From assembly GCA_018819225.1 (NCBI GenBank), contig JAHJQN010000008.1, forward strand, positions 160,001 through 224,000: DNA of 64,000 bases, written 5' to 3'. The translations under genes and the position numbers were made by a program. Positions within the stretch are counted from its first letter, which is position 1. Every line of letters begins with the position of its first letter. The stretch comes from Candidatus Micrarchaeota archaeon. GTDB taxonomy: Archaea; Micrarchaeota; Micrarchaeia; Norongarragalinales; SBBD01. The notes beneath the pieces are model-generated. The model was not told the origin of the DNA, did not search any database, and worked only from the letters and a program-made list of their open reading frames with translations. Positions 3,671 to 14,084 of this stretch are shown one piece after another.

Positions 3671-4975
3671 ATGATCGTCGAACAACCGCATATGCTGCAG
3701 CGCCCGCGATTTCCTCCATTATTCAAAGGATCGGAAGCGGCCACCGTAATTCAAGCGCAGAAACAATGGATTGCAGGAGCCCCCCGAACAGGATTCTGCC
3801 CCATTTGCCGTAGTCGGGGGTGCGCGCACCTTGAAAAACTCCAGCTTCAAATCCAATTGAAGCAAAAAAAGAAATTAACCCGAGACGTATTTGGGGCGTC
3901 GCCACCGAACGCGTTCATTGGCACTCACGGTTACCCGTTCGTCAACATCGGGCCATTAGTCGGAATCGACGACAGCGTGGATTCAAAGACATTCGATCAT
4001 CCCGCGGACTGGTACGGTAAAACCGTGAACGAAATCGTCGAGTTCCGCAGCATGCTCGCCCGCGGGAAAAAAATGCATTCAGTAAAACAAGAAAGCCGCA
4101 CGCTCTCGGAATTGCAGGATGTCGTGCTATCCAGCCAAACCATCGATCTGGAAGTGAGATTCCGGAAAGAGTTAAGCTTCAGCGTCGCGTTGTCCCCCGT
4201 CACCCAGCCCATGGGACCGTCCGCCGAAATGGAGCGCATGCGGCTGGCGGGCAACCCAACGATTCCGAGAAAAGTGGATAGCCTGCTCGAAGAGAACCTG
4301 AAGACGCGCGATGCCGTCGACGAACTCATGAAACGGAATTACGACGTGTATTACTTGCAGAAATTATTGTCGATAGGCGTGTTCGGACAAAGACAGCGGA
4401 AGCGGCTCGTGCCCACGCGATGGAGCATCACCGCCACGGACAAGATGACGGCCGATCATTACATTGACGAAATCAAAACGCTCCCGTGGCTGCCTGAAAT
4501 TCGCGTGTACAGCAATGAATACCTCTTCAACCGATTCGATATCCTATTAATTCCCGGTCCGTGGGAATTCGAACAATTCGAGGCATGGCAGAAAGGAAGC
4601 GCGTGGTCCGCTGGAGGAAAAGAAGAATGGGGATTCGTATCGGAATACGAACCCTATAAGGGGAGAAGCGATTACGCCGAAAAAGAAGCCGGAGGATATT
4701 ACGCGGGGCGATTCGGCGCGGCGGAAGCGCTCGCTAAACAGCTGCGAAAGCAGGCGAAAGTCGTGGTGTTCAGGGAAATCGGAAAGGAGTATAACATGCC
4801 CGTCGGGGTTTGGGCTGTTCGTCAAACAGTAAGAGAAGCCTTCAAAAAACCACCATATAAATTCGCTACCCGAAATGAAGCCGAAGAGTTCCTGAAAAAC
4901 AGATTAAAGGTAAGTATGCGGGATTATGCTAAAGGCAGTCGCGTGCTTCCTCAAAGAAAATTGACCGAATACTAA
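3671..4975 (+). CDS. nreA: DNA repair protein Nre (PCNA-interacting)
   Basis: N-terminal Cys cluster CPICRSRGC, G.SPP..F.G..GYP.V..GP, LVPTRWSITA.D, GGYYA.R, PVGVW, and a C-terminal PIP box QRKLTEY. Confidence 0.92.
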   Translation: MIVEQPHMLQRPRFPPLFKGSEAATVIQAQKQWIAGAPRTGFCPICRSRGCAHLEKLQLQIQLKQKKKLTRDVFGASPPNAFIGTHGYPFVNIGPLVGIDDSVDSKTFDHPADWYGKTVNEIVEFRSMLARGKKMHSVKQESRTLSELQDVVLSSQTIDLEVRFRKELSFSVALSPVTQPMGPSAEMERMRLAGNPTIPRKVDSLLEENLKTRDAVDELMKRNYDVYYLQKLLSIGVFGQRQRKRLVPTRWSITATDKMTADHYIDEIKTLPWLPEIRVYSNEYLFNRFDILLIPGPWEFEQFEAWQKGSAWSAGGKEEWGFVSEYEPYKGRSDYAEKEAGGYYAGRFGAAEALAKQLRKQAKVVVFREIGKEYNMPVGVWAVRQTVREAFKKPPYKFATRNEAEEFLKNRLKVSMRDYAKGSRVLPQRKLTEY

Positions 4976-6260
4976 ATGGACTTAAAAGAAAAGCCAACCA
5001 CTGGAACACGAGGGTCGAACAAGCTACTTAGTTATTCACACCGAAAATAGGTTATGGATTACTTTCATTTCTGGGATTTGCCACCCGATTCTTACATTAT
5101 TTTAACAGAACCATGCCAAAAGCAACTTCTCTTAAAATCAATTGACAAAACGAAAACGTTAAGACAGTTATCAATAATATTACGGGAAAAAGCGCGGGTA
5201 TACCGTATCCGGGCAATGGTTAGTTTTCCCGTGATAACAAATTGGAAAACATGTAAACGAAGAAAAATTCCAGTTTGGGTAATAATCGAACTAAGTAGGT
5301 TATTGGATATCAGTCCGGACCATATTGAAACAAAAATTATCGGATACGGAAATGCGGGGAGGAGCTTATTCATTACCGGAAATTTTCCCATAAAAATTTC
5401 TCCAGAATTCGACTCCGTCGTTTCGAATTTTATGGGAGACGGAAGTTTTGGAAATATTAAAAGCCTGCCTAACTACAAACAAAAAAATGAGCTCGGTAGA
5501 CGAATTTTTTTAACCAAACTTTATAACGTATTTGGAAAATTTTGTAAAAATGATCTCGCGTATGATACCTATTGGCAGGTTAGAATTCCTAAAATCATTG
5601 GAGAAATCATAAAAAAGTATTATCAAATCAGTCCAACGGATAGTTTGAACAGAAGACTGCCCAATCAAATGAAGAACAAATCAAGAAATTTCAAAATAGC
5701 CATTTTAGCATCATTTATTGTTGACGAAGGCCATATCGGAGACTCCATAGAAATCTATTCGGGGAATAAAGCGTTACTTCAAGATTATCTCGAGATAGCG
5801 GAAAGCCTCGAGTATAGATGTACTGAAATAAAAAAGAAAAAAGGGCACTTGACACCGCGACCCTCATACCGATTTCGAATTTCTGCAAGAAGTAGTAAAA
5901 AAATTCTTGCTGATCTCGAAGAACTTAAACAGGAATATCCAAATTGTAGTTTGGCTCACAAACAGAAGCAGTTAGAACAAATCGTTAGAAAACAGGAAAT
6001 TCAATTTAAACGCTGTCAATCAAGAAAGCAGGATATATTGAAATTATTGGACCACGAAGTGAATACGATCAACAAGCTTAAAGAGATCCTTCCGATAACC
6101 GGCACCACTATTTCGGAACACCTCAGAGAGCTTGAAAATAAGGGATTAATCGAAAGAGTCGGAAAAGTGAAAGATGCCGATATTTGGAAGCGAATGATCT
6201 CAATGGCACCCAACATGCAAGGAAAGCATAGTCCAATACGGTAATTGGATACTCCGATTT
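4808..6260 (+). mobile_element. Putative homing-endonuclease element (recoded nreA 3' end plus free-standing LAGLIDADG gene); boundaries approximate
   Basis: AT-rich segment (sampled lines about 32-35% GC versus about 50-60% in flanks). The codon-usage switch begins inside nreA at about 4808. Confidence 0.5.
5054..6244 (+). CDS. Free-standing double-motif LAGLIDADG endonuclease-family protein with C-terminal winged HTH
   Basis: Motif 1 VVSNFMGDGSF and motif 2 ILASFIVDEGHI, each with its acidic residue. C-terminal ArsR-like wHTH (TISEHLRELENKGLIERVG). No intein splice residues. Confidence 0.85.
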   Translation: MDYFHFWDLPPDSYIILTEPCQKQLLLKSIDKTKTLRQLSIILREKARVYRIRAMVSFPVITNWKTCKRRKIPVWVIIELSRLLDISPDHIETKIIGYGNAGRSLFITGNFPIKISPEFDSVVSNFMGDGSFGNIKSLPNYKQKNELGRRIFLTKLYNVFGKFCKNDLAYDTYWQVRIPKIIGEIIKKYYQISPTDSLNRRLPNQMKNKSRNFKIAILASFIVDEGHIGDSIEIYSGNKALLQDYLEIAESLEYRCTEIKKKKGHLTPRPSYRFRISARSSKKILADLEELKQEYPNCSLAHKQKQLEQIVRKQEIQFKRCQSRKQDILKLLDHEVNTINKLKEILPITGTTISEHLRELENKGLIERVGKVKDADIWKRMISMAPNMQGKHSPIR

Positions 6261-6323
6261 CTAGGAAAGCAAAAGCCTTATTAAAACGAGCGCGGCAAAG
6301 AGCACTAGAGGAGAAAGCCTGGA

Positions 6324-7145
6324 ATGCGCGCACTCATCTTAATGGCATTCGTGATGATCGGAATCGCGAGCGCCGCCCCGCACGTCATCATTGTCGATCC
6401 GGTTGTGCATACCATCTCCGAAGGAGAAACACTGGATTTGGGCGTGGTAGGGCCGGGACAACGCCTGGAAGTGGAAATTCGCAGTGGAACAGGAGAACCC
6501 GATTTCCAAGGAGAGGAAAAAGACTGGGATCGCTTGCTCGTGGATGAATCCTCCTTGCCCATCGGATGGGAACAACTCGACAGCAAGTACTACGAGCGAA
6601 TCATGAAGGCATTCGTCATCGTTTCACCGCTCGCGCCCGACGGAGAGTATGCGTTTGCACTCCGCACGTTCGACGAATACCAGGGAACGGATCCCGTACG
6701 CTTCAACGCGAAAGTGAAAGTGAGCCGAGACGTATTCAGGTTCCAAGTCCTGCAAGAAGATGTCACGGCCGGAACCGACCAGCCCGCCGTCTACGCCATG
6801 AAGCTCCAAAACCTGGGAAGCGCCAGCGACGCATTCCGGATCGAAGTCGCGGAAGGACTGCCGTCGAAATGGGCGTATACGAGAGACGTGTTCGTACCCC
6901 ATAATACGGAACAGACCATTCAATTCGAGCTCGTCGGAACCGACCAAGGCGAGTACAACGTGCACTTCACAGCGACCTCCCTGTCTTCCGCGGAAATCCA
7001 AGGAGACCAATACGCGGGATTGATAGTCAGAAGCTCGATCATCGAGGAAATGAAAGCAGCGGGTCGAGGCATGCTCTTGTTTCCAACCATCGAGCAAATC
7101 GTGTACAACTTGATAGGCCTTATTGCCATCAACGCGTTCGAATAG
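6324..7145 (+). CDS. Hypothetical secreted/membrane-anchored protein with Ig-like beta domains
   Basis: Signal peptide MRALILMAFVMIGIASA, an 'LQNLGSASDAF' Ig-like motif and a hydrophobic C-terminus. Confidence 0.75.
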   Translation: MRALILMAFVMIGIASAAPHVIIVDPVVHTISEGETLDLGVVGPGQRLEVEIRSGTGEPDFQGEEKDWDRLLVDESSLPIGWEQLDSKYYERIMKAFVIVSPLAPDGEYAFALRTFDEYQGTDPVRFNAKVKVSRDVFRFQVLQEDVTAGTDQPAVYAMKLQNLGSASDAFRIEVAEGLPSKWAYTRDVFVPHNTEQTIQFELVGTDQGEYNVHFTATSLSSAEIQGDQYAGLIVRSSIIEEMKAAGRGMLLFPTIEQIVYNLIGLIAINAFE

Positions 7146-8306: not shown

Positions 8307-11300
8307 TTATCCTGCCAACTTTTTGCAAAGCACAGAGTAGAAAACGCTTTCGAGACCGTTTTGCAATTGATAATGGAATACGGAAGTACCCGAAAGCGGA
8401 ATATTCAATGTTTTTTCAAGAGCTTTAAGGATCGCGGGAGTCTGCGCGTCTGTAACTCCCCATCGTGCCTGCAATAAAGTTCCCAACCAATTGGCATAAA
8501 CGCTGTACTCAGGGTATTTGTATTGCGTGTACACTTGAGCCCCCGCGATCGCGATTCCAACGTAATCAAGGTGACAGGTTTCCGTTACGCCGGCATGAAC
8601 AACCGCATACATCTGATTATCACATACAGAAGAAACGACATAGGAGCGCTTGGGATTGCATTTCTCTATGCAGATGACCACACCTTCAGGCGGAGGACCG
8701 TATAGAGGTTCGGGGAGCCCAACAAGGCAGGAACAAAGGAGTTGTGTGGTGCGGGTCAATGGGAAGAATCCGGGGAAATCGATGTCGATACCCGAAGCAG
8801 TTACTGCCCCCGCTTTCGTCGCCGCTTGAGTTGCAGTGTATGCTGCTTCCTTACATGCAATTTTTGTAGAATACGCAGCTGCTTCACATGCGGTCAATTC
8901 TGCAGCACAAGCGGGTTGAGCACAACAGGGGCATATCAAAACTGCACAGGTAGCGGCGGAGCACGCAGCGTATACATCCCCACAAATATTCATTTCGGCT
9001 AAGTAAGCCGCATCACACGTACGAACCGCCGAAGTGTAACTGGTCGTTTGCGATGAAGCGACGTGGTCGCACATCAGTTTTCTGACAGGGATTTGCCAGA
9101 AACTGCTTGGAATCGGAATCGGAGTCAGATTCTCCTTGTCCTTGACTTGCTCTGCAGCTGCAAGGTTAGCATTCGGATCCGAGTCCACGCAATCTGGCTT
9201 GCCCGTCAGGAAATCGCATAAGGCCAGATAGCCGCCGGACGATTGTCGGCTGAACGACTCGGTTCCTTCGGAAGCCGGCGTGCGCGAACTGCCGGGACAA
9301 GACGGAGGCTGGTTCGGGGAAACGTACTGGTAGCGGTACAGGCGGGAAATGCGTGCGCGGTACGTCCACGCAAAACCGTCGTAAGTGGAAGCGTAGACTT
9401 CGTAAACCGCTGGCGCGTCGCTCTCGCAACCGTACTGCGAAGGCGAGTCCTGAACGGAGACTTGACTGGGAAGCTTGGCGCCTTGAAGCAAGCGAATCAC
9501 CGTAGAGAAAATGAAGGGTTGATCCGTAATCTTTGAAATAGGTAGTTTCGCTCGCTTGTCCGTGCGGAAAGCGGTTTGGTCGGCCATGTTTTGAGCCAGT
9601 TGTTTGAACGCAGAAAACGAGCCTGCGGCTGCTTGAGTCGTGCACCAGCCGTCCGCGCAACAAAACGCGTCGCTGCAGCTTTCCTTGCGCGGGCCCTGAT
9701 CGCTGATATCTTGGTAGTAAGTGGAAGTGGGAGCGTATACGAGGGAAGCGGCCTTGCCGTCGTTCTCAAAAAGTTCCAATAGGCCGTCGCCGCTCCACGC
9801 ATAACTTTTAGCGCCCGCGCGATCGAATTCAGTGAATTGTTGATTGTTAATGGATAGGCGGCGCTGGCCCTGCGCTTCACTGATAATGTGGAAGAGCTTG
9901 GAGGAAGAGCCCTCTAAAGAAGCGGGTTCCAAGTAAGTCGTGGGAAAGCTGTTGTCGATGCGCAAATCAATGGGAAGCGATAAAACGTTGGAAGCGTCTC
10001 CGGGACAGGTCAGCTCGAGAACGGATTCGCCTGCTTGCGTTAGCTGGCCTCCGCTTAAATCAATGGGGCACGACGGACGATAGGGTCCGCCGCGGAAAAT
10101 AATGTAGCCGTCTTGAACTGAGAAACAGTCTGCGTTCGGGGAACGGATCGCCGTAAGCGGATGAGTGCATTTATCGGTGATGTCGAATTTCACTACGTCG
10201 CCTGGGAAAATGGGATCGGCCTGCATTTGAATGGACGCGATGTTGGTAACAAGTTGTCCGTTGACGATATCGATGCCGATGCCGGGACGAGGAGTCGGAG
10301 TCGGCCCTCCTGAATCCCCAACGCATACGCCGTTCTGGCATCCACGCAAGCAGTTTTGCACGCGTTCGGCTTGCAGAACATTGGAACACGTTCCGAAATC
10401 ACATGAACGCGTTCCATAATTCGAGTATACATCCCCGTTTTGACAGAAGGGCTCGCCGGAATAGCCATCCAAACCGCAATCGCCGTCGTAATGGCAGTCA
10501 ATAGTGGGATCGGGTTCGGAAATCACGTCTACAAACGTGTCGGTGCAGGCCTTGCTGCCGATGGATGCGGAAACCGAAAAGCTGCCGGAGTTGGGATAGT
10601 AACACATCGCCGAGCATAAACCCGTGCGGTCCGCGCAATTCGTTGCAACGGTTGCGCGATCGTTCCCGCAATTAATGTTAATGATTTGAGGCGCTGAAGA
10701 AAGATCGAAGTAATTGACTTGAGCCATCGTGGATTGACCTGAATTCAGCTCGCTCTTTTGAACGTTGACGGTGCAACGACCGTTTTCAGTTGGAATAGAG
10801 GGAATGCACGTGCCCGTGCTTTGATCGCATTCGCCGGAAGCGCATTCGTAATTGTAAGTGCACTCAAGCGGAGTCGAACAAGAGCCCGTGCAGCAAACCC
10901 CTGCGGTACAAGCGCCCTCGATGGGAGAGCATTCCTCGTAATCGCCGCAACCGCCTACGCACGAGCCGCCTGCTTCGGAGCATAAGGCGTCTGCAGACGG
11001 CGTTTCGTCACAGAGTCGAGTATTTTCATTACAGCTCCCGGAATCACATTCCGAGTCTTCCTCGCAGGGTTCCGGAGCAGCGTCCGGAGATTCACAGTAT
11101 CCGGTCGCGACGTCGCATTGTTGCGGATAACACTCCCAGTTCTCGGAACAAGGCTGGAGCGTGGGCTCGGGAGTCGGCGTGCCGATGAAACCGCAATCCA
11201 CGCGGCAGATTCCATCCAAACAAAGCATTTTCCCGGAAGGACATACCTCGAGTTCGGGCTCTTCCGACGGATCGGGAAGGGTTATGCAAAGGTATTGGCA

Positions 11301-14084
11301 CGAGCCATCCTCGCAAATGCGCTTTCCTCGGCCGCAAGAAGTTAGAATGGAGAAATCGATGGTTTCACGGATCTTCTGGTTCTCAAGATTTTCTGGCCAG
11401 ACTTCAACCGTAACGGTTTCCTCACCTTCGCGCAAGGGCCAGCTCGTTACTTTAACATCGTAATAGGAGCTATCGGAAACGGAGGCAAGAACAGAAGAGG
11501 CTTGAGAGTCCATAGAAGCGGCGTGGTTAACCGAGTACTTTTTGAACGCGAGAAGGCCGCCGCGTTGTGAAACACGGAAATTGAAGGGACGATTCGAGAA
11601 CGAAGGAGAGGGATCGAAATCGAGGTGAACGAATAATGCGGAGAGAACGCAGGAATCCTCGCAGCCATCGCACGAATCGTCGCACTCGAGTCCGGAAGGG
11701 CCTTCCAATGCGCGGGCTTGAAATCCGTCACCAGCTAGAAACCCGTCTTGCTCCAGCGCAATGGATAAACAGCCGGCTGCTTGACACCTGAACTCTTGAA
11801 CTTGCACGAGCGGAAGAGATTCCTCGAATGTACTGGCATAGCAGCCTCCTTTGTCCGGCGTGCTTTCCAAGAAGCCCAGTTGTTCGTCAGGAGGGACGCG
11901 GAAATAGCCGTCATCTTGCAACGCGTACGCCCTGTAAAAGAACGGAATCGAGGTTTTACCTTGCACATTATTTTTGACTTGGAAGCGGAAGGAAACGTCT
12001 TGGACCATGGGACCGTTGAAAACAAGTTCCATCCATTTGAAGCCGTCATCGCTCGCCGTATCCACTGGGCAAACCGGACCCGGAACGTAGGAAGGAGAAC
12101 GAACCACTGAATCAGCGGGAGTCAGCGCATCATAAGAGAGAAGCTGGCCCTCGCCTTGCTCGAGGTCCGAACCCGTACCCAAACGGAAATAGACGCCGGT
12201 TTCCTCCGCGTCACTTGAACCCACTAAAAGCTTAGCGGTATATTGAAGGCCGGCTTGCAGCTCGGATACTTGGTTGTCGAAGGCATCGAAGACGCCCAGC
12301 CATTGAACATAAGACCCTTCCAGCTCATCGATGGGTAACAGGAATAAGGGAACGGATTTCTCGTCCTCTCCTCCGGAGAACACTTCAGAAGAGTAATCGA
12401 AGTACTCGGACGCGAACACGTCCACGATTCCCGAAGAAAGATGGGGCAAGCGCAGATAACAAAGCGTGCCCGAACAGTAATCAAAGGATTCGTCTTCAAC
12501 GGAAAGCGCGAAGTCCGCAAACACGGGCGCTTCAGAAAACGCGTCGTACGCCGAGACTTCTAAGAACGTGACCGGGCCGCTCAAAAATATTTCTAAGTAT
12601 TCGTTTTGTAGAAGGAGGACGCGGCCGTAACCGGTCTCGCCTGAATAATGTTCTTCAACGGTGTATTTGAAATTGATAGGAAGGTAGACCGTTAAACTCG
12701 CGGAAGAATCGGTGTTGGATTCCAAGAGCACGGTCTTATCCTCCGATAAAACGCGTACCTCGGCACCCGAAAGCGCATTGCGGGAAGCATCCTGAGTTTG
12801 AATGGTTAATGCGGCGGAATTCTCGGCGGTCGCCATTTCCAAAAACAAAGAAACGTCTTCCGAAAAGGGAGCGGTAAAGAAGCCGCTGACCGCCGGAAGA
12901 CGCGCATCCGAAAAAGCGGACACGTAATAAGTGAGGGAAGCGGGATCTTCACCCAATGCGAGTTCGATGTCCGCGAGAGTCAACACGGATTCGCCCGAAC
13001 TCTCTTGTTGCAATACGAGCCGGCTATCGGACGTGTAAAGCGAGATGGTTGAGGAAACGAGGTTGCCTTCCTCGTCCAACGTGCGAACCTTGAAGTCTTC
13101 CGTGAGTCCGTCCGAACGAAGCGAAATTTCGTGCTTCGTCAACGCTTTGATCTTTATTTGCTGCGAGCCCGCATAGGGAAGGAAGAGGTCGGAACGGGCG
13201 GCAAGATACACGCGGGATCCGACGAGCAGGCCATCGAAGGTAGTTTTGCCGTTCACCGTGTCCTTGGAAGCGAGCTGCACATCCGTGGACGCGTCGAAAA
13301 CCGTTACCGTGGATTGGGACACGGGATTTCCGTCCGGATCTTTCACGAGAACCTCGAGCGAACCATACTCCAAATCAGCGGGCGCGCCGGACGGACGAGG
13401 CGTGGCCGAACCCGACCGGCGCTGCAAAGTCACTTCAACGACTTTCCCTTTTTTCGGGAGAAACGAAAACGATTTTTCCAAGTAGTTCGGGTGAGACACG
13501 CGCGTGTTCACCGTACGGCCCTCGGAAACCAACAAAACCGCCTTTCCTTGGGCATCCGTTTCGGCCGAAGAAGATTTTTGGGAGCGATCCGAAGCGTATT
13601 GAATGGATGCTTTGGAAATGGCCGAACCGGAATCGTGATCCAAAACGAGAACGGTGATGCTCAAGGTTTCAAGCGCGGGAATGGTTTGTTCAGGCGATAA
13701 TTCCACGCTGACGGACGGCTTGTTTTGAACAACAGCCGTCGCCAACTCGTAACCGTTCTTCAGCACTTTCACGACGACTTTCGGCAGGTTGACATTTGAA
13801 AACAAGGCGCGGCCTTGCGCGTCGCTTCGCTGTTCGTCAATGAAATTTCCCTTCTCATCGAAAAGTTGAACGCGTGCATCGGACACGGCTTCACCGCTCT
13901 CCGATAACACGGTCACTTTCAATTCGCTGATCACGGATTTCGGGAGAAAGAAAGTGGTCAAGAAAGCGAGAATGGCGAGAACGAGAATGATCAGAATAAT
14001 GAGGGACGGGAGCGCGGGAAGACCCTTGGATTCGGCGAATTCGGCGAACTGAGCATATACGCGCTTGAGGTCCTCAGGATCCAT
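8307..14084 (-). CDS. Giant (1925 aa) N-terminally anchored surface protein: carboxypeptidase-regulatory-like beta repeats, Cys-rich repeats, C-terminal Cys/Ala domain
   Basis: N-terminal TM (SLIILIILVLAILAFL), repeated V.D..G..V..A.V / TD..G motifs, PTPTP linkers and many C..D.EC motifs. Confidence 0.85.
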   Translation of the reverse strand: MDPEDLKRVYAQFAEFAESKGLPALPSLIILIILVLAILAFLTTFFLPKSVISELKVTVLSESGEAVSDARVQLFDEKGNFIDEQRSDAQGRALFSNVNLPKVVVKVLKNGYELATAVVQNKPSVSVELSPEQTIPALETLSITVLVLDHDSGSAISKASIQYASDRSQKSSSAETDAQGKAVLLVSEGRTVNTRVSHPNYLEKSFSFLPKKGKVVEVTLQRRSGSATPRPSGAPADLEYGSLEVLVKDPDGNPVSQSTVTVFDASTDVQLASKDTVNGKTTFDGLLVGSRVYLAARSDLFLPYAGSQQIKIKALTKHEISLRSDGLTEDFKVRTLDEEGNLVSSTISLYTSDSRLVLQQESSGESVLTLADIELALGEDPASLTYYVSAFSDARLPAVSGFFTAPFSEDVSLFLEMATAENSAALTIQTQDASRNALSGAEVRVLSEDKTVLLESNTDSSASLTVYLPINFKYTVEEHYSGETGYGRVLLLQNEYLEIFLSGPVTFLEVSAYDAFSEAPVFADFALSVEDESFDYCSGTLCYLRLPHLSSGIVDVFASEYFDYSSEVFSGGEDEKSVPLFLLPIDELEGSYVQWLGVFDAFDNQVSELQAGLQYTAKLLVGSSDAEETGVYFRLGTGSDLEQGEGQLLSYDALTPADSVVRSPSYVPGPVCPVDTASDDGFKWMELVFNGPMVQDVSFRFQVKNNVQGKTSIPFFYRAYALQDDGYFRVPPDEQLGFLESTPDKGGCYASTFEESLPLVQVQEFRCQAAGCLSIALEQDGFLAGDGFQARALEGPSGLECDDSCDGCEDSCVLSALFVHLDFDPSPSFSNRPFNFRVSQRGGLLAFKKYSVNHAASMDSQASSVLASVSDSSYYDVKVTSWPLREGEETVTVEVWPENLENQKIRETIDFSILTSCGRGKRICEDGSCQYLCITLPDPSEEPELEVCPSGKMLCLDGICRVDCGFIGTPTPEPTLQPCSENWECYPQQCDVATGYCESPDAAPEPCEEDSECDSGSCNENTRLCDETPSADALCSEAGGSCVGGCGDYEECSPIEGACTAGVCCTGSCSTPLECTYNYECASGECDQSTGTCIPSIPTENGRCTVNVQKSELNSGQSTMAQVNYFDLSSAPQIININCGNDRATVATNCADRTGLCSAMCYYPNSGSFSVSASIGSKACTDTFVDVISEPDPTIDCHYDGDCGLDGYSGEPFCQNGDVYSNYGTRSCDFGTCSNVLQAERVQNCLRGCQNGVCVGDSGGPTPTPRPGIGIDIVNGQLVTNIASIQMQADPIFPGDVVKFDITDKCTHPLTAIRSPNADCFSVQDGYIIFRGGPYRPSCPIDLSGGQLTQAGESVLELTCPGDASNVLSLPIDLRIDNSFPTTYLEPASLEGSSSKLFHIISEAQGQRRLSINNQQFTEFDRAGAKSYAWSGDGLLELFENDGKAASLVYAPTSTYYQDISDQGPRKESCSDAFCCADGWCTTQAAAGSFSAFKQLAQNMADQTAFRTDKRAKLPISKITDQPFIFSTVIRLLQGAKLPSQVSVQDSPSQYGCESDAPAVYEVYASTYDGFAWTYRARISRLYRYQYVSPNQPPSCPGSSRTPASEGTESFSRQSSGGYLALCDFLTGKPDCVDSDPNANLAAAEQVKDKENLTPIPIPSSFWQIPVRKLMCDHVASSQTTSYTSAVRTCDAAYLAEMNICGDVYAACSAATCAVLICPCCAQPACAAELTACEAAAYSTKIACKEAAYTATQAATKAGAVTASGIDIDFPGFFPLTRTTQLLCSCLVGLPEPLYGPPPEGVVICIEKCNPKRSYVVSSVCDNQMYAVVHAGVTETCHLDYVGIAIAGAQVYTQYKYPEYSVYANWLGTLLQARWGVTDAQTPAILKALEKTLNIPLSGTSVFHYQLQNGLESVFYSVLCKKLAG
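10315..11340 (-). repeat. Cys-rich protein-level repeats with Pro/Thr linkers inside the giant surface protein
   Basis: CEEDSECDSGSC, CTYNYECASGEC, CSENWECYPQQC, CHYDGDCG; also two C.DG.C units. Confidence 0.7.

What the first reader, a model, noticed from the sequence alone, without database searches (positions are those of the whole stretch)
4808..6244. Free-standing LAGLIDADG element that appears to carry a recoded replacement 3' end of nreA (intron-less homing)
Seen: an AT-rich two-motif LAGLIDADG gene with both catalytic acids follows nreA. The atypical codon usage starts inside nreA, at the conserved PVGVW motif. After ccc-gtc-ggg (about 4807), nine of the next ten codons end in A/T, and only about 19 of the last 55 codons end in G/C, unlike the body of the gene. 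The usual VRE reads VRQ. Established: free-standing homing endonucleases in T4-like phages and organelles spread by cutting a conserved site in a neighbouring gene and co-converting a resistant allele. Inference: this element targets the nreA PVGVWxVRE coding site and restores the gene with a recoded, immune tail that keeps the PIP box. It would be a selfish element parasitising a chromosomal DNA-repair gene with no intron or intein. Alternative: a domesticated WhiA-like LAGLIDADG-HTH regulator.
Basis: partly seen in the sequence, partly recalled or inferred. Interest (0 to 1): 0.72.

Follow-up and report, generated by a model that had tools for sequence, protein, structure and literature searches.

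The report
Homing-endonuclease cassette replacing nreA's tail
A selfish 1.4-kb DNA cassette, made of a free-standing LAGLIDADG endonuclease gene and a foreign AT-rich copy of the last ~53 codons of the repair gene nreA, sits in this small Micrarchaeota genome, and relatives across several archaeal phyla show the same insertion, a spreading strategy so far described in fungal mitochondria.

Summary

- **Composition:** nreA (3671-4975) switches from GC3 0.63 to 0.35 at codon 380-382 (4808-4814). This is the largest body-to-tail drop among 528 long ORFs of this genome.
- **The gene:** the next ORF (5054-6244) folds as a two-domain LAGLIDADG endonuclease. Both catalytic acids (D129, E225) are present, followed by a C-terminal winged helix.
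- **Insertion:** same-family genomes have nreA directly followed by the next host gene.
- **Relatives:** about 19 of 24 homologues with readable context, from Micrarchaeota, Nanoarchaeota/Woesearchaeota, Iainarchaeota and Hadarchaeota, abut the 3' end of nreA. GC-rich hosts show the same GC3 break at codons 378-388.
- **Identity break:** identity to endonuclease-free relatives collapses after codon ~380.
- **Orphan tails:** about eight cassettes keep the displaced native tail beyond the endonuclease gene.
- **Motif:** endonuclease-bearing alleles have lost the conserved W-E/Q-V-R-E-N motif.

No orphan tail is detectable in this window. Cleavage is untested.

The closest analogue is the mobile endonuclease ORFs that make hybrid genes in fungal mitochondria. 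I found no paper describing this for archaea or nreA. The scan has already noted the same cassette on other genomes (e1-1069854, e1-3380765).

The parts
3671..4813 (+). nreA, native part (codons 1-381, ending in P-V-G-V-W at 4799-4813)
   Evidence: Pfam Nre_N and the start of Nre_C. GC3 0.63, host-like. Closest homologue 62% identical.
4799..4843 (+). Junction and disabled putative homing site: PVGVW followed by AVRQTVREAF instead of the usual (E/Q)(V/I)RENVRHAF
   Evidence: GC3 change point at codon 380-382. Relatives' orphan tails start at codons ~383-390. E/Q382 is present in 27/27 free against 2/18 bearing alleles, and N386 in 24/27 against 1/18. This allele has 3 mismatches at positions at least 80% conserved among free alleles.
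4814..4975 (+). Replacement (cassette-borne) nreA tail, codons 382-434 plus stop. The left edge is uncertain by about 2 codons (4808-4814).
   Evidence: GC3 0.34-0.35 against 0.63, the largest such drop in the genome. Analogous tails in relatives are foreign by identity and by the presence of orphan native tails.
4952..4972 (+). PIP-like PCNA-binding motif QRKLTEY, kept at the C-terminus of the replacement tail
   Evidence: Read from the sequence. The C-terminal PIP of Nre proteins and its requirement for function are described in PMC7776575.
4976..5053 (+). 78-bp AT-rich spacer between the nreA stop and the endonuclease start, probably holding the endonuclease promoter
   Evidence: The spacer of G054 shares only a short AACCACTGGAA. 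A promoter is inference only.
5054..6244 (+). Free-standing LAGLIDADG-wHTH homing endonuclease gene, 396 aa, single copy in the genome
   Evidence: AF2 pLDDT 90.8. Foldseek best matches are TliVMA, PI-TkoII, PI-PfuI, I-DmoI and I-Tsp061I. Family alignment A1. Single copy. GC 0.36 against 0.52 in the flanks. The N-terminus aligns with homologues, so the 5054 start is preferred over the 342-aa gene call P0001.
5417..5446 (+). LAGLIDADG motif 1 (VVSNFMGDGS, catalytic D129)
   Evidence: D129 and G130 are invariant in alignment A1. Coordinates.
5705..5734 (+). LAGLIDADG motif 2 (LASFIVDEGH, catalytic E225)
   Evidence: D224 is invariant and E225 is conserved in at least 90% of A1. Coordinates.
6032..6193 (+). 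C-terminal winged helix-turn-helix (residues ~327-380), a presumed extra DNA-binding module
   Evidence: Pfam HTH_5 3.6e-05 and related wHTH families. PDB profile hits to ArsR/MarR-type regulators. Helix-helix-hairpin in the model.
6245..6323 (+). Right junction: 79 bp between the endonuclease stop and the host gene p273. GC returns to the host level here and no orphan nreA tail is detectable.
   Evidence: A tail HMM with --max finds nothing here. Manual six-frame reading. GC profile.
6324..7145 (+). Host gene p273 (no Pfam family), the normal downstream neighbour of nreA in this family
   Evidence: In 4 genomes of genus g4 it follows nreA after ~130 bp. No Pfam hit.

Best explanation
Positions ~4808/4814-6244 are a mobile homing cassette. 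It consists of a replacement 3' end of nreA (codons ~382-434, PIP box kept), a 78-bp spacer, and a free-standing gene for a monomeric two-domain LAGLIDADG endonuclease with an N-terminal helical domain and a C-terminal winged helix.

The inferred mechanism has three steps.

1. **Cleavage.** In a cell that receives the cassette, or its DNA, together with an endonuclease-free nreA, the enzyme recognises about 20-30 bp encoding P-V-G-V-W-(E/Q)-(V/I)-R-E-N-V-R and cuts near codons 381-383.
2. **Repair.** The break is repaired by homologous recombination from the cassette-bearing allele. The endonuclease gene and the foreign tail are copied in.
3. **Immunity and gene function.** The resulting hybrid nreA stays intact and functional, but its site is disabled (here A382, Q385, T386), so the carrier is immune.

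In many relatives the displaced native tail remains beyond the endonuclease gene. There it can serve as the downstream homology arm. In this genome it has been lost or was replaced outright.

**Shown:** the foreign composition, the insertion relative to family synteny, the fold and catalytic residues, the recurrence at the same site across phyla, identity breakpoints and orphan tails in relatives, and the altered site codons.

**Inferred:** nuclease activity, the exact target and cut site, current mobility, and the route of DNA exchange.
For: **1. Composition**
- The GC3 change point lies at codon 380-382, p = 0.004.
- This is the top outlier of 528 ORFs, and the island is in the lowest 0.9% of windows.

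**2. Insertion**
- Same-family genomes have nreA followed directly by p273.
- The protein is absent from 10/10 same-family genomes and strongly matched in only 4 other genomes of 68 in the order.
- G054 against G024 (same genus) shows an 1166-bp indel that is exactly the spacer plus the endonuclease gene.

**3. Same site elsewhere**
- Homologues abut the nreA 3' end in G030, G039 and G054, in P0002-P0005 and P0009, and in 12 of 14 genome-contig hits from five phylum-level groups.
- In the convergent form the two 3' ends overlap by 14-21 bp, so the tail is physically part of the cassette.

**4. Tail is cassette-like**
- The six largest body-to-tail GC3 drops of 36 alleles are all endonuclease-bearing (Mann-Whitney p = 9e-4).
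- Their change points lie at ref 378, 382, 382 and 388.

**5. Identity breakpoints at codon ~380**.

**6. Orphan native tails**
- L054 has an orphan with iE 1e-14. It is 64% identical to the tail of the nearest free relative but only 47% to its own in-frame tail.
- L068 has an orphan with iE 7e-12 that begins I-R-E-N-V-R, while the in-frame copy reads W-V-C-G-E-T-T-K.
- Remnants are also seen in L056, L051, L059, L067 and L073, plus a weak L065 hit (iE 0.27).

**7. Site codons**
- N386 is present in 24/27 free against 1/18 bearing alleles. E/Q382 is present in 27/27 against 2/18.
- Mismatches at conserved site positions differ with p = 1.7e-4.

**8. Enzyme**
- The model has pLDDT 90.8 and a LAGLIDADG fold.
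- D129, G130 and D224 are invariant and E225 is conserved in at least 90% of members.

**9. Life-cycle signs**
- G039 carries a truncated copy with an internal stop.
- G024 is endonuclease-free but has a non-canonical site.
- Hadarchaeota and Iainarchaeota copies nest inside a Nano/Woesearchaeota clade.

**10.** No terminal inverted repeats or target duplications are present, as expected for homing rather than transposition.
Against: - No biochemical evidence of cleavage exists.
- No orphan tail is detectable in this window. Here, 'replacement' rests on composition, the altered motif and analogy with relatives.
- No close endonuclease-free allele of this organism exists in the databases (best 62% aa). 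At amino-acid level this tail is about as similar to the nearest relative (54%) as the body is (67%).
- Tails of bearing alleles do not cluster together, and tail identity does not track endonuclease identity (regression coefficient ~0). So common descent of the tails with the endonuclease gene is not demonstrated. They may diverge fast or be exchanged repeatedly.
- Endonuclease identity correlates with NreA body identity (r = 0.83). Much of the inheritance is therefore vertical or between close kin.
- The two gene orders (co-directional here and in G054, convergent elsewhere) need an extra rearrangement or an independent seeding event, and the tree does not resolve which.
- The Fisher and Mann-Whitney tests are not corrected for phylogeny. 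The free alleles come from one order only.
Confidence: 0.8

Rival explanations
1. Domesticated LAGLIDADG-wHTH protein. On this view it is a WhiA-like DNA-binding regulator or repair partner functionally coupled to NreA, kept next to nreA by selection rather than by homing.
For: - The C-terminal wHTH is of ArsR/MarR type, and WhiA is among the structural matches.
- Most copies are intact and the link to nreA holds across phyla.
- Endonuclease identity tracks NreA body identity (r = 0.83).
Against: - Both catalytic acids are conserved throughout the family. From my own knowledge, WhiA has lost them.
- The distribution is sporadic, with none in 10 same-family genomes.
- The gene is AT-rich relative to every GC-rich host.
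- Orphan tails and identity breakpoints are insertion scars that a regulator would not make.
- The orientation relative to nreA varies.
- G039 holds a decayed copy.
Confidence: 0.07
2. The endonuclease gene inserted in the intergenic spacer after an intact nreA, and the tail was never exchanged. On this view the AT-rich, divergent tail reflects relaxed constraint or AT-biased mutation next to the insertion.
For: - There is no orphan tail in this window.
- In G054 against G024 the indel lies exactly after the stop codon.
- Tails of bearing alleles evolve faster than body or endonuclease.
- The nreA-p273 spacer is an insertion hot spot in relatives, holding toxin-antitoxin-like pairs.
Against: - The composition break is abrupt and falls at the same codons (378-388) in four independent alleles.
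- It coincides with the 5' ends of orphan tails in relatives and with sharp identity breakpoints.
- Conserved site residues E/Q382 and N386 are specifically replaced, while the PIP box is kept.
- In the convergent form the tail overlaps the endonuclease ORF.
Confidence: 0.08
3. A true homing cassette, but now an immobile relic. It is fixed in this lineage, has no susceptible alleles left to invade, and the endonuclease is on its way to decay.
For: - It is single copy, and no other allele of this organism's nreA turned up in the protein search (best non-self hit 62% identical).
- The homing cycle predicts this stage. A decayed copy is seen in G039.
Against: - The ORF is intact, with every family-invariant residue.
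- Its GC (0.36) is the least ameliorated of all copies relative to its host (0.52), which suggests a recent arrival.
Confidence: 0.05

Closest known systems
Mobile endonuclease ORFs (mORFs) that create hybrid genes in fungal mitochondria: Allomyces macrogynus atp6; Glomus sp. atp6, atp9, cox2, nad3 (Beaudet et al. 2013, PMC3630166)
   Same: A free-standing LAGLIDADG (or GIY-YIG) ORF enters the 3' part of a conserved gene together with a foreign C-terminal coding segment that keeps the gene intact. The native C-terminus is displaced downstream or completely replaced. The native remnant groups with close relatives while the inserted one does not. The same pattern is seen here and in relatives.
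   Different: - The host is an archaeal chromosome, not an organelle, and the target is a DNA-repair gene.
- The enzyme has extra N-terminal and wHTH domains.
- The cassette occurs in two gene orders.
- It is spread across several archaeal phyla.
- In this window no native remnant is left, as in Glomus atp9.
Intron-less homing by free-standing endonucleases of T4-like phages (SegF, SegG, MobE; for example PMC2790892)
   Same: The endonuclease gene lies between genes. It cuts a nearby conserved gene in endonuclease-free genomes and spreads with co-conversion of flanking markers. Carriers are protected by site polymorphism.
   Different: - The phage enzymes belong to the GIY-YIG or HNH families.
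- Spread there happens during co-infection.
- No duplicated or replaced gene end is part of those elements.
Archaeal LAGLIDADG enzymes of rRNA introns and inteins (I-DmoI, I-Tsp061I, PI-PfuI, PI-TkoII, TliVMA)
   Same: They are the best structural matches. They share the monomeric two-domain fold with one acidic residue per motif.
   Different: Those enzymes are embedded in a self-splicing intron or intein. Here nreA ends in its own stop codon and the endonuclease is a separate ORF with its own start. Sequence identity is only 10-19%.
WhiA (bacterial LAGLIDADG-HTH transcription factor)
   Same: A LAGLIDADG core followed by a C-terminal helix-turn-helix. It appears among the structural matches (8dy9_I).
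   Different: From my own knowledge, WhiA lacks the catalytic acids and is conserved and syntenic in Gram-positive bacteria. This family keeps both acids, is sporadic and leaves insertion scars.

Membership tests
LAGLIDADG homing endonuclease (monomeric, two-motif) | Two alpha-beta-beta-alpha-beta-beta-alpha domains whose LAGLIDADG helices pack together | tested here: met
   AF2 model pLDDT 90.8, pTM 0.80. Foldseek probability 1.00 to PI-TkoII, PI-PfuI, I-DmoI and I-Tsp061I.
LAGLIDADG homing endonuclease (monomeric, two-motif) | One catalytic acidic residue at the end of each LAGLIDADG motif | tested here: met
   D129 (invariant) and E225 (at least 90%) in alignment A1.
LAGLIDADG homing endonuclease (monomeric, two-motif) | Match to a curated Pfam LAGLIDADG model above threshold | tested here: inconclusive
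   This protein has no LAGLIDADG hit even at E <= 1. 10 of 15 family members hit PF14528 (best 1.4e-05). A family profile hits I-DmoI at E 0.0018.
LAGLIDADG homing endonuclease (monomeric, two-motif) | Site-specific double-strand cleavage of a long target | not testable with these tools
   Needs purified protein and substrates.
Free-standing homing endonuclease gene / intron-less homing | Not embedded in an intron or intein | tested here: met
   nreA ends with its own stop at 4973-4975. The endonuclease has its own ATG at 5054 after a 78-bp spacer. No Rfam scan for a group I intron was run on this window.
Free-standing homing endonuclease gene / intron-less homing | Sporadic presence at one conserved genomic site in otherwise syntenic relatives | tested here: met
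Free-standing homing endonuclease gene / intron-less homing | Carrier allele differs from the susceptible allele at the target | tested here: met
   E/Q382 and N386 are replaced in bearing alleles. That these codons are the target is inferred.
mORF-type hybrid gene (inserted C-terminus + endonuclease ORF + native C-terminus) | Foreign in-frame C-terminal segment joined to the native gene core | tested here: met
   GC3 step at codon 380-382. Identity breakpoints in relatives.
mORF-type hybrid gene (inserted C-terminus + endonuclease ORF + native C-terminus) | Displaced native C-terminus downstream of the endonuclease ORF | tested here: not met
   None in this window. It is met in relatives L054, L056, L051, L059, L067, L068 and L073, with a weak hit in L065. 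Complete replacement is also known for Glomus atp9.
WhiA-like domesticated LAGLIDADG-HTH regulator | Loss of the catalytic acidic residues | tested here: not met
   Both acids are kept family-wide.
Intein-encoded endonuclease | In-frame fusion within the host protein, flanked by Hint splicing blocks | tested here: not met
   It is a separate ORF, and Pfam gives no Hint or intein domain.
NreA (archaeal Nre family) | Nre_N and Nre_C domains and a C-terminal PIP motif | tested here: met
   Pfam 8.7e-84 and 5.3e-29. QRKLTEY at the C-terminus. PIP as a family feature per PMC7776575.

The most novel reading that the evidence does not exclude
These cassettes may be an active gene drive that crosses phylum boundaries among DPANN and other small archaea. 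Three points follow.

- The displaced native tail would be a built-in downstream homology arm.
- Repeated invasion and escape would force rapid turnover of the PCNA-binding C-terminus of NreA and of the conserved W-E-V-R-E-N motif. In bearing alleles the tail diverges faster than either the gene body or the endonuclease.
- The large LAGLIDADG-wHTH family has 223 clusters at E <= 1e-30. It may retarget other repair and replication genes in the same way; one member splits an Lhr-type helicase gene.

If true, this would imply frequent DNA exchange and homologous recombination between cells of these episymbiotic archaea.
Probability: 0.35. Interest if true: 0.85.

Novelty: new variant of a known kind. 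Interest (0 to 1): 0.7.

Why it matters
- **New setting for a known strategy.** Free-standing homing endonucleases that bring a spare gene end are known from fungal mitochondria and, in looser form, from T4-like phages. I found no paper that reports one in an archaeal chromosome or in nreA.
- **DNA exchange in uncultured archaea.** The cassette recurs at one codon-level site in at least five phylum-level groups of mostly uncultured, small-genome archaea. It therefore marks DNA exchange and homologous recombination in organisms whose genetics cannot yet be studied directly.
- **A candidate enzyme.** It predicts a new long-target endonuclease with an unusual three-module DNA-binding architecture and a defined candidate site.
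- **Annotation.** The last ~53 codons of nreA, including its PCNA-binding motif, are foreign in carriers. Short 'hypothetical' ORFs beyond the endonuclease gene can be orphan gene ends.

Tried and rejected
- **Orphan tail in this window.** A tail HMM with all filters off, plus manual six-frame reading of 6200-6340, found nothing. A faint 'AKALL..R' resemblance is too short to count.
- **Transposon-type ends.** No terminal inverted repeats or target-site duplication flank 4808-6244.
- **Shared ancestry of cassette-borne tails.** Tails of bearing alleles are not each other's nearest neighbours. Tail identity is not explained by endonuclease identity (coefficient 0.01). A tail tree would be uninformative at ~53 residues, so I did not build one.
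- **Sister relation of the two co-directional cassettes (this genome and G054).** It is unresolved in the tree. Their tails and spacers are only ~55-60% identical in nucleotides.
- **Close endonuclease-free allele of this organism.** None exists; the best is 62% aa.
- **Other ORFs with large tail GC3 drops in this genome** (C2:320217, C1:179147). One is probably a spurious antisense frame (it overlaps longer opposite-strand ORFs) and the other looks like a membrane-type protein. Neither is followed by a stretch of endonuclease-like low GC; the downstream ORFs were not scanned for domains.
- **Pfam on the single protein.** It gave no LAGLIDADG hit, so family-level and structural evidence was needed.
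- **Complex prediction.** No job was sent, because no protein-protein binding is claimed.
Full report
**What is in the window.**

nreA occupies 3671-4975 on the plus strand (Pfam Nre_N 8.7e-84, Nre_C 5.3e-29). A 396-codon ORF follows at 5054-6244. Names attached to the NreA homologues place the organism in Candidatus Micrarchaeota. The genome held is 1.37 Mb in 8 contigs.

A low-GC island of about 0.35, against about 0.52 around it, runs from roughly 4800 to 6250.

**Checking the observation.**

- After ccc-gtc-ggg, nine of the next ten codons end in A/T.
- GC3 is 0.63 over the first 379 codons of nreA and 0.345 over the last 55 (19 of 55). The best change point is codon 380-382, that is 4808-4814, with permutation p = 0.004.
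- Among all 528 ORFs of at least 300 codons in the genome, nreA shows the largest difference between body and last 55 codons (0.29; mean -0.004, sd 0.077).
- The island's GC of 0.372 lies in the lowest 0.9% of 1.4-kb windows.
- With correct numbering the motif is P377-V-G-V-W381 (4799-4813), followed by A382-V-R-Q-T-V-R-E-A-F391 (4814-4843). The protein ends in QRKLTEY (4952-4972).

**The downstream gene.**

Pfam sees only a C-terminal winged helix on this protein alone (HTH_5, residues 327-367). The case for a LAGLIDADG nuclease comes from the family and the fold:

- In an alignment of 15 family members, D129, G130 and D224 are invariant and E225 is kept in at least 90%. These sit in the two motifs VVSNFMGDGS and LASFIVDEGH.
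- Ten of the 15 members hit PF14528.
- A family profile reaches I-DmoI (E 0.0018).
- An AlphaFold model built on that alignment has mean pLDDT 90.8. Its best PDB matches are archaeal LAGLIDADG enzymes (TliVMA, PI-TkoII, PI-PfuI, I-DmoI, I-Tsp061I), with WhiA further down the list.
- The architecture is an N-terminal helical domain (~1-100), two LAGLIDADG domains, a long helix (301-332) and a wHTH.
- The N-terminus aligns with homologues. The 5054 start is therefore better than the 342-aa gene call in the database.
- The gene is single copy in this genome.

**It is an insertion.**

In the same family the gene order is enolase, a 188-aa membrane protein, nreA, a 273-aa protein (p273) and trm1. 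In four genomes of genus g4 only about 130 bp separate nreA from p273.

None of the 10 other genomes of the family has a homologue of the endonuclease. In the order, 4 genomes of 68 besides this one have a strong match.

**The same gene sits at the same place in distant archaea.**

- Strong homologues abut the 3' end of nreA in G054 (same strand, as here), G030 and G039 (convergent).
- The same holds on metagenome contigs carrying P0002, P0003, P0004, P0005 and P0009. These are convergent, with the 3' ends of the two genes overlapping by 14-21 bp.
- A scan of species-representative genomes found 14 further relatives, labelled Micrarchaeota, Hadarchaeota, Nanoarchaeota, Woesearchaeota and Iainarchaeota. 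Twelve are convergent at the nreA 3' end.
- Genes beyond the pair differ between loci.
- More distant members lie elsewhere (L050, L061/L075, L062/L077).
- In total about 19 of 24 members with readable context are at nreA.
- The wider family is large: 223 clusters at 50% identity with E <= 1e-30.

**The tail belongs to the cassette.**

I compared 36 nreA alleles.

- The six largest GC3 drops after codon 380 are all endonuclease-bearing alleles (0.29, 0.28, 0.26, 0.17, 0.16, 0.12). The free alleles range from -0.15 to +0.10 (Mann-Whitney p = 9e-4). The two bearing alleles without a drop come from hosts that are already very AT-rich.
- Significant change points map to reference codons 382 (this genome), 378, 382 and 388. 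No free allele has a significant change point there.
- Sliding identity shows sharp steps at the same position. G054 against G024 (same genus) is 0.73-0.91 nt identical before codon ~380 and 0.53-0.64 after. L054 against L014 falls from 0.82-0.91 to 0.44-0.53.
- Against the regression from free/free pairs (tail = 0.86 x body - 0.04, sd 0.058), these pairs lie 2.6 to 5 sd low.

**Orphan tails.**

Beyond the endonuclease gene, on the nreA strand, several relatives keep a second, unattached nreA 3' end.

- In L054 it covers codons ~390-434 (iE 1e-14). It is 64% identical to the tail of the nearest free relative, but only 47% to the in-frame tail of its own gene.
- In L068 (iE 7e-12) it begins I-R-E-N-V-R-F-A-L, the canonical motif. 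The in-frame copy reads W-V-C-G-E-T-T-K.
- Shorter remnants of host type are present in L056/L055/L047, L051, L059, L067 and L073, and weakly in L065 (iE 0.27).

These are direct scars of an insertion near codons 381-390 that brought its own tail. None is detectable in this window or in G054. In G054 against G024 the indel is exactly the spacer plus the endonuclease gene, after the stop codon. So in the co-directional form the native tail has been fully replaced or lost.

**The probable target.**

- Free alleles share the nucleotide consensus CCn gTn GGc GTg TGG gAg gTn cGc GAg AAc Gtg cGg cAc.
- Bearing alleles carry 2-8 mismatches at positions that are at least 80% conserved. Most free alleles carry 0-1 (p = 1.7e-4).
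- E/Q382 is present in 27/27 free and 2/18 bearing alleles. N386 is present in 24/27 and 1/18.
- These tests are not corrected for phylogeny. The free set also comes from one order only. The L068 orphan shows that the canonical motif is native in a distant lineage as well.
- This genome reads A382, Q385 and T386.
- G024, which is free but has a non-canonical site (6 mismatches), may be an allele that lost the endonuclease gene.

**Signs of a selfish life cycle.**

- The G039 copy lacks its N-terminal part and has an internal stop.
- The gene is AT-richer than every GC-rich host, most strongly here (0.36 against 0.52).
- Hadarchaeota and Iainarchaeota copies nest within a Nano/Woesearchaeota clade.
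- There are no transposon-like ends.

**Caveats.**

- Cleavage is untested.
- Tails of bearing alleles are not more alike than expected, and they diverge faster than both the gene body and the endonuclease. Their common descent with the endonuclease gene is therefore not shown.
- Endonuclease identity correlates with host NreA identity (r = 0.83), which suggests mostly vertical or close-kin spread.
- The two gene orders are not explained.
- For this organism no close free allele exists.

**Comparison with what is known.**

The nearest described system is the mobile endonuclease ORFs of fungal mitochondria. These insert with a foreign C-terminal segment into atp6, atp9, cox2 and nad3, and they displace or replace the native end (PMC3630166).

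Intron-less homing in T4-like phages shares the logic but not the carried gene end (PMC2790892, listed; the mechanism is from my own knowledge).

Searches for nreA with homing endonuclease, for LAGLIDADG with DPANN, and for free-standing archaeal endonucleases found nothing that describes this.

NreA is a PCNA-dependent repair factor whose C-terminal PIP motif is needed for function (PMC7776575). That fits the retention of the PIP-like end in the replacement tail.

Earlier notes of this scan describe the same cassette on other genomes (e1-1069854, e1-3380765). I treated them as leads only. All evidence above was generated here.

**Verdict.**

This is a new variant of a known kind of selfish element, in a new domain of life, with a defined and testable target. 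Confidence in the cassette reading is about 0.8. Confidence that the enzyme is currently active is lower.

Noticed in passing
L003:2594-3261, L004:2792-3460, L008:2687-3183: In same-family genomes G001, G004 and G003, small two-gene cassettes occupy the spacer between nreA and p273. By eye they look like toxin-antitoxin pairs: an 89-aa ORF plus a PIN-like 130-133-aa ORF, or a 78-aa ORF plus a RelE-like 87-aa ORF. The site seems to be a general hot spot for selfish insertions.
   Followed up: partly
L062:2496-5784: A distant member of the same LAGLIDADG-wHTH family lies inside an Lhr-type helicase gene and splits it. The upstream ORF ends at WH_Lhr profile position 83 of 168. The downstream ORF resumes at position 97 and continues into DEAD_assoc. 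All three ORFs overlap by a few bases.
   Followed up: partly
L015:1459-2610 (G024): This nreA is endonuclease-free but has a non-canonical site (Q-V-R-T-G-V-E-G, 6 mismatches to the free consensus) and a mild tail GC3 drop (0.10). It comes from the same genus as the cassette-bearing G054. It is a candidate resistant allele left after loss of the endonuclease gene.
   Followed up: partly
L055:5184-6217: On one contig carrying the P0004 cassette, nreA matches in two pieces that are out of frame with each other, and the called gene has Nre_N only. Another sample with the identical endonuclease (L056) has an intact nreA. This is either a disrupted host gene or an assembly error.
   Followed up: no
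G000:C5:93677-95641, C5:11569-11802, C3:98793-99035, C3:101856-102101 (outside the window): There are five further PF14528 LAGLIDADG domains in this genome. Three lie in very long open frames (1657 and 1392 aa, probably inteins). Two lie in short frames of 182 and 224 aa.
   Followed up: no
window 8307-14084 (-): A 1925-aa ORF encodes a very cysteine-rich, apparently extracellular protein next to trm1. I did not analyse it.
   Followed up: no
G000:C7:28601, C2:195401, C7:237001, C7:35601, C7:25201 (outside the window): Other 1.4-kb stretches have even lower GC (0.28-0.36) than this island. They may be further foreign insertions.
   Followed up: no
window 5054-5215: The database gene call for the endonuclease (P0001, 342 aa) starts at Met55. 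Homologues align from residue 1-5 of the 396-aa frame, so the longer ORF is the likely gene.
   Followed up: yes
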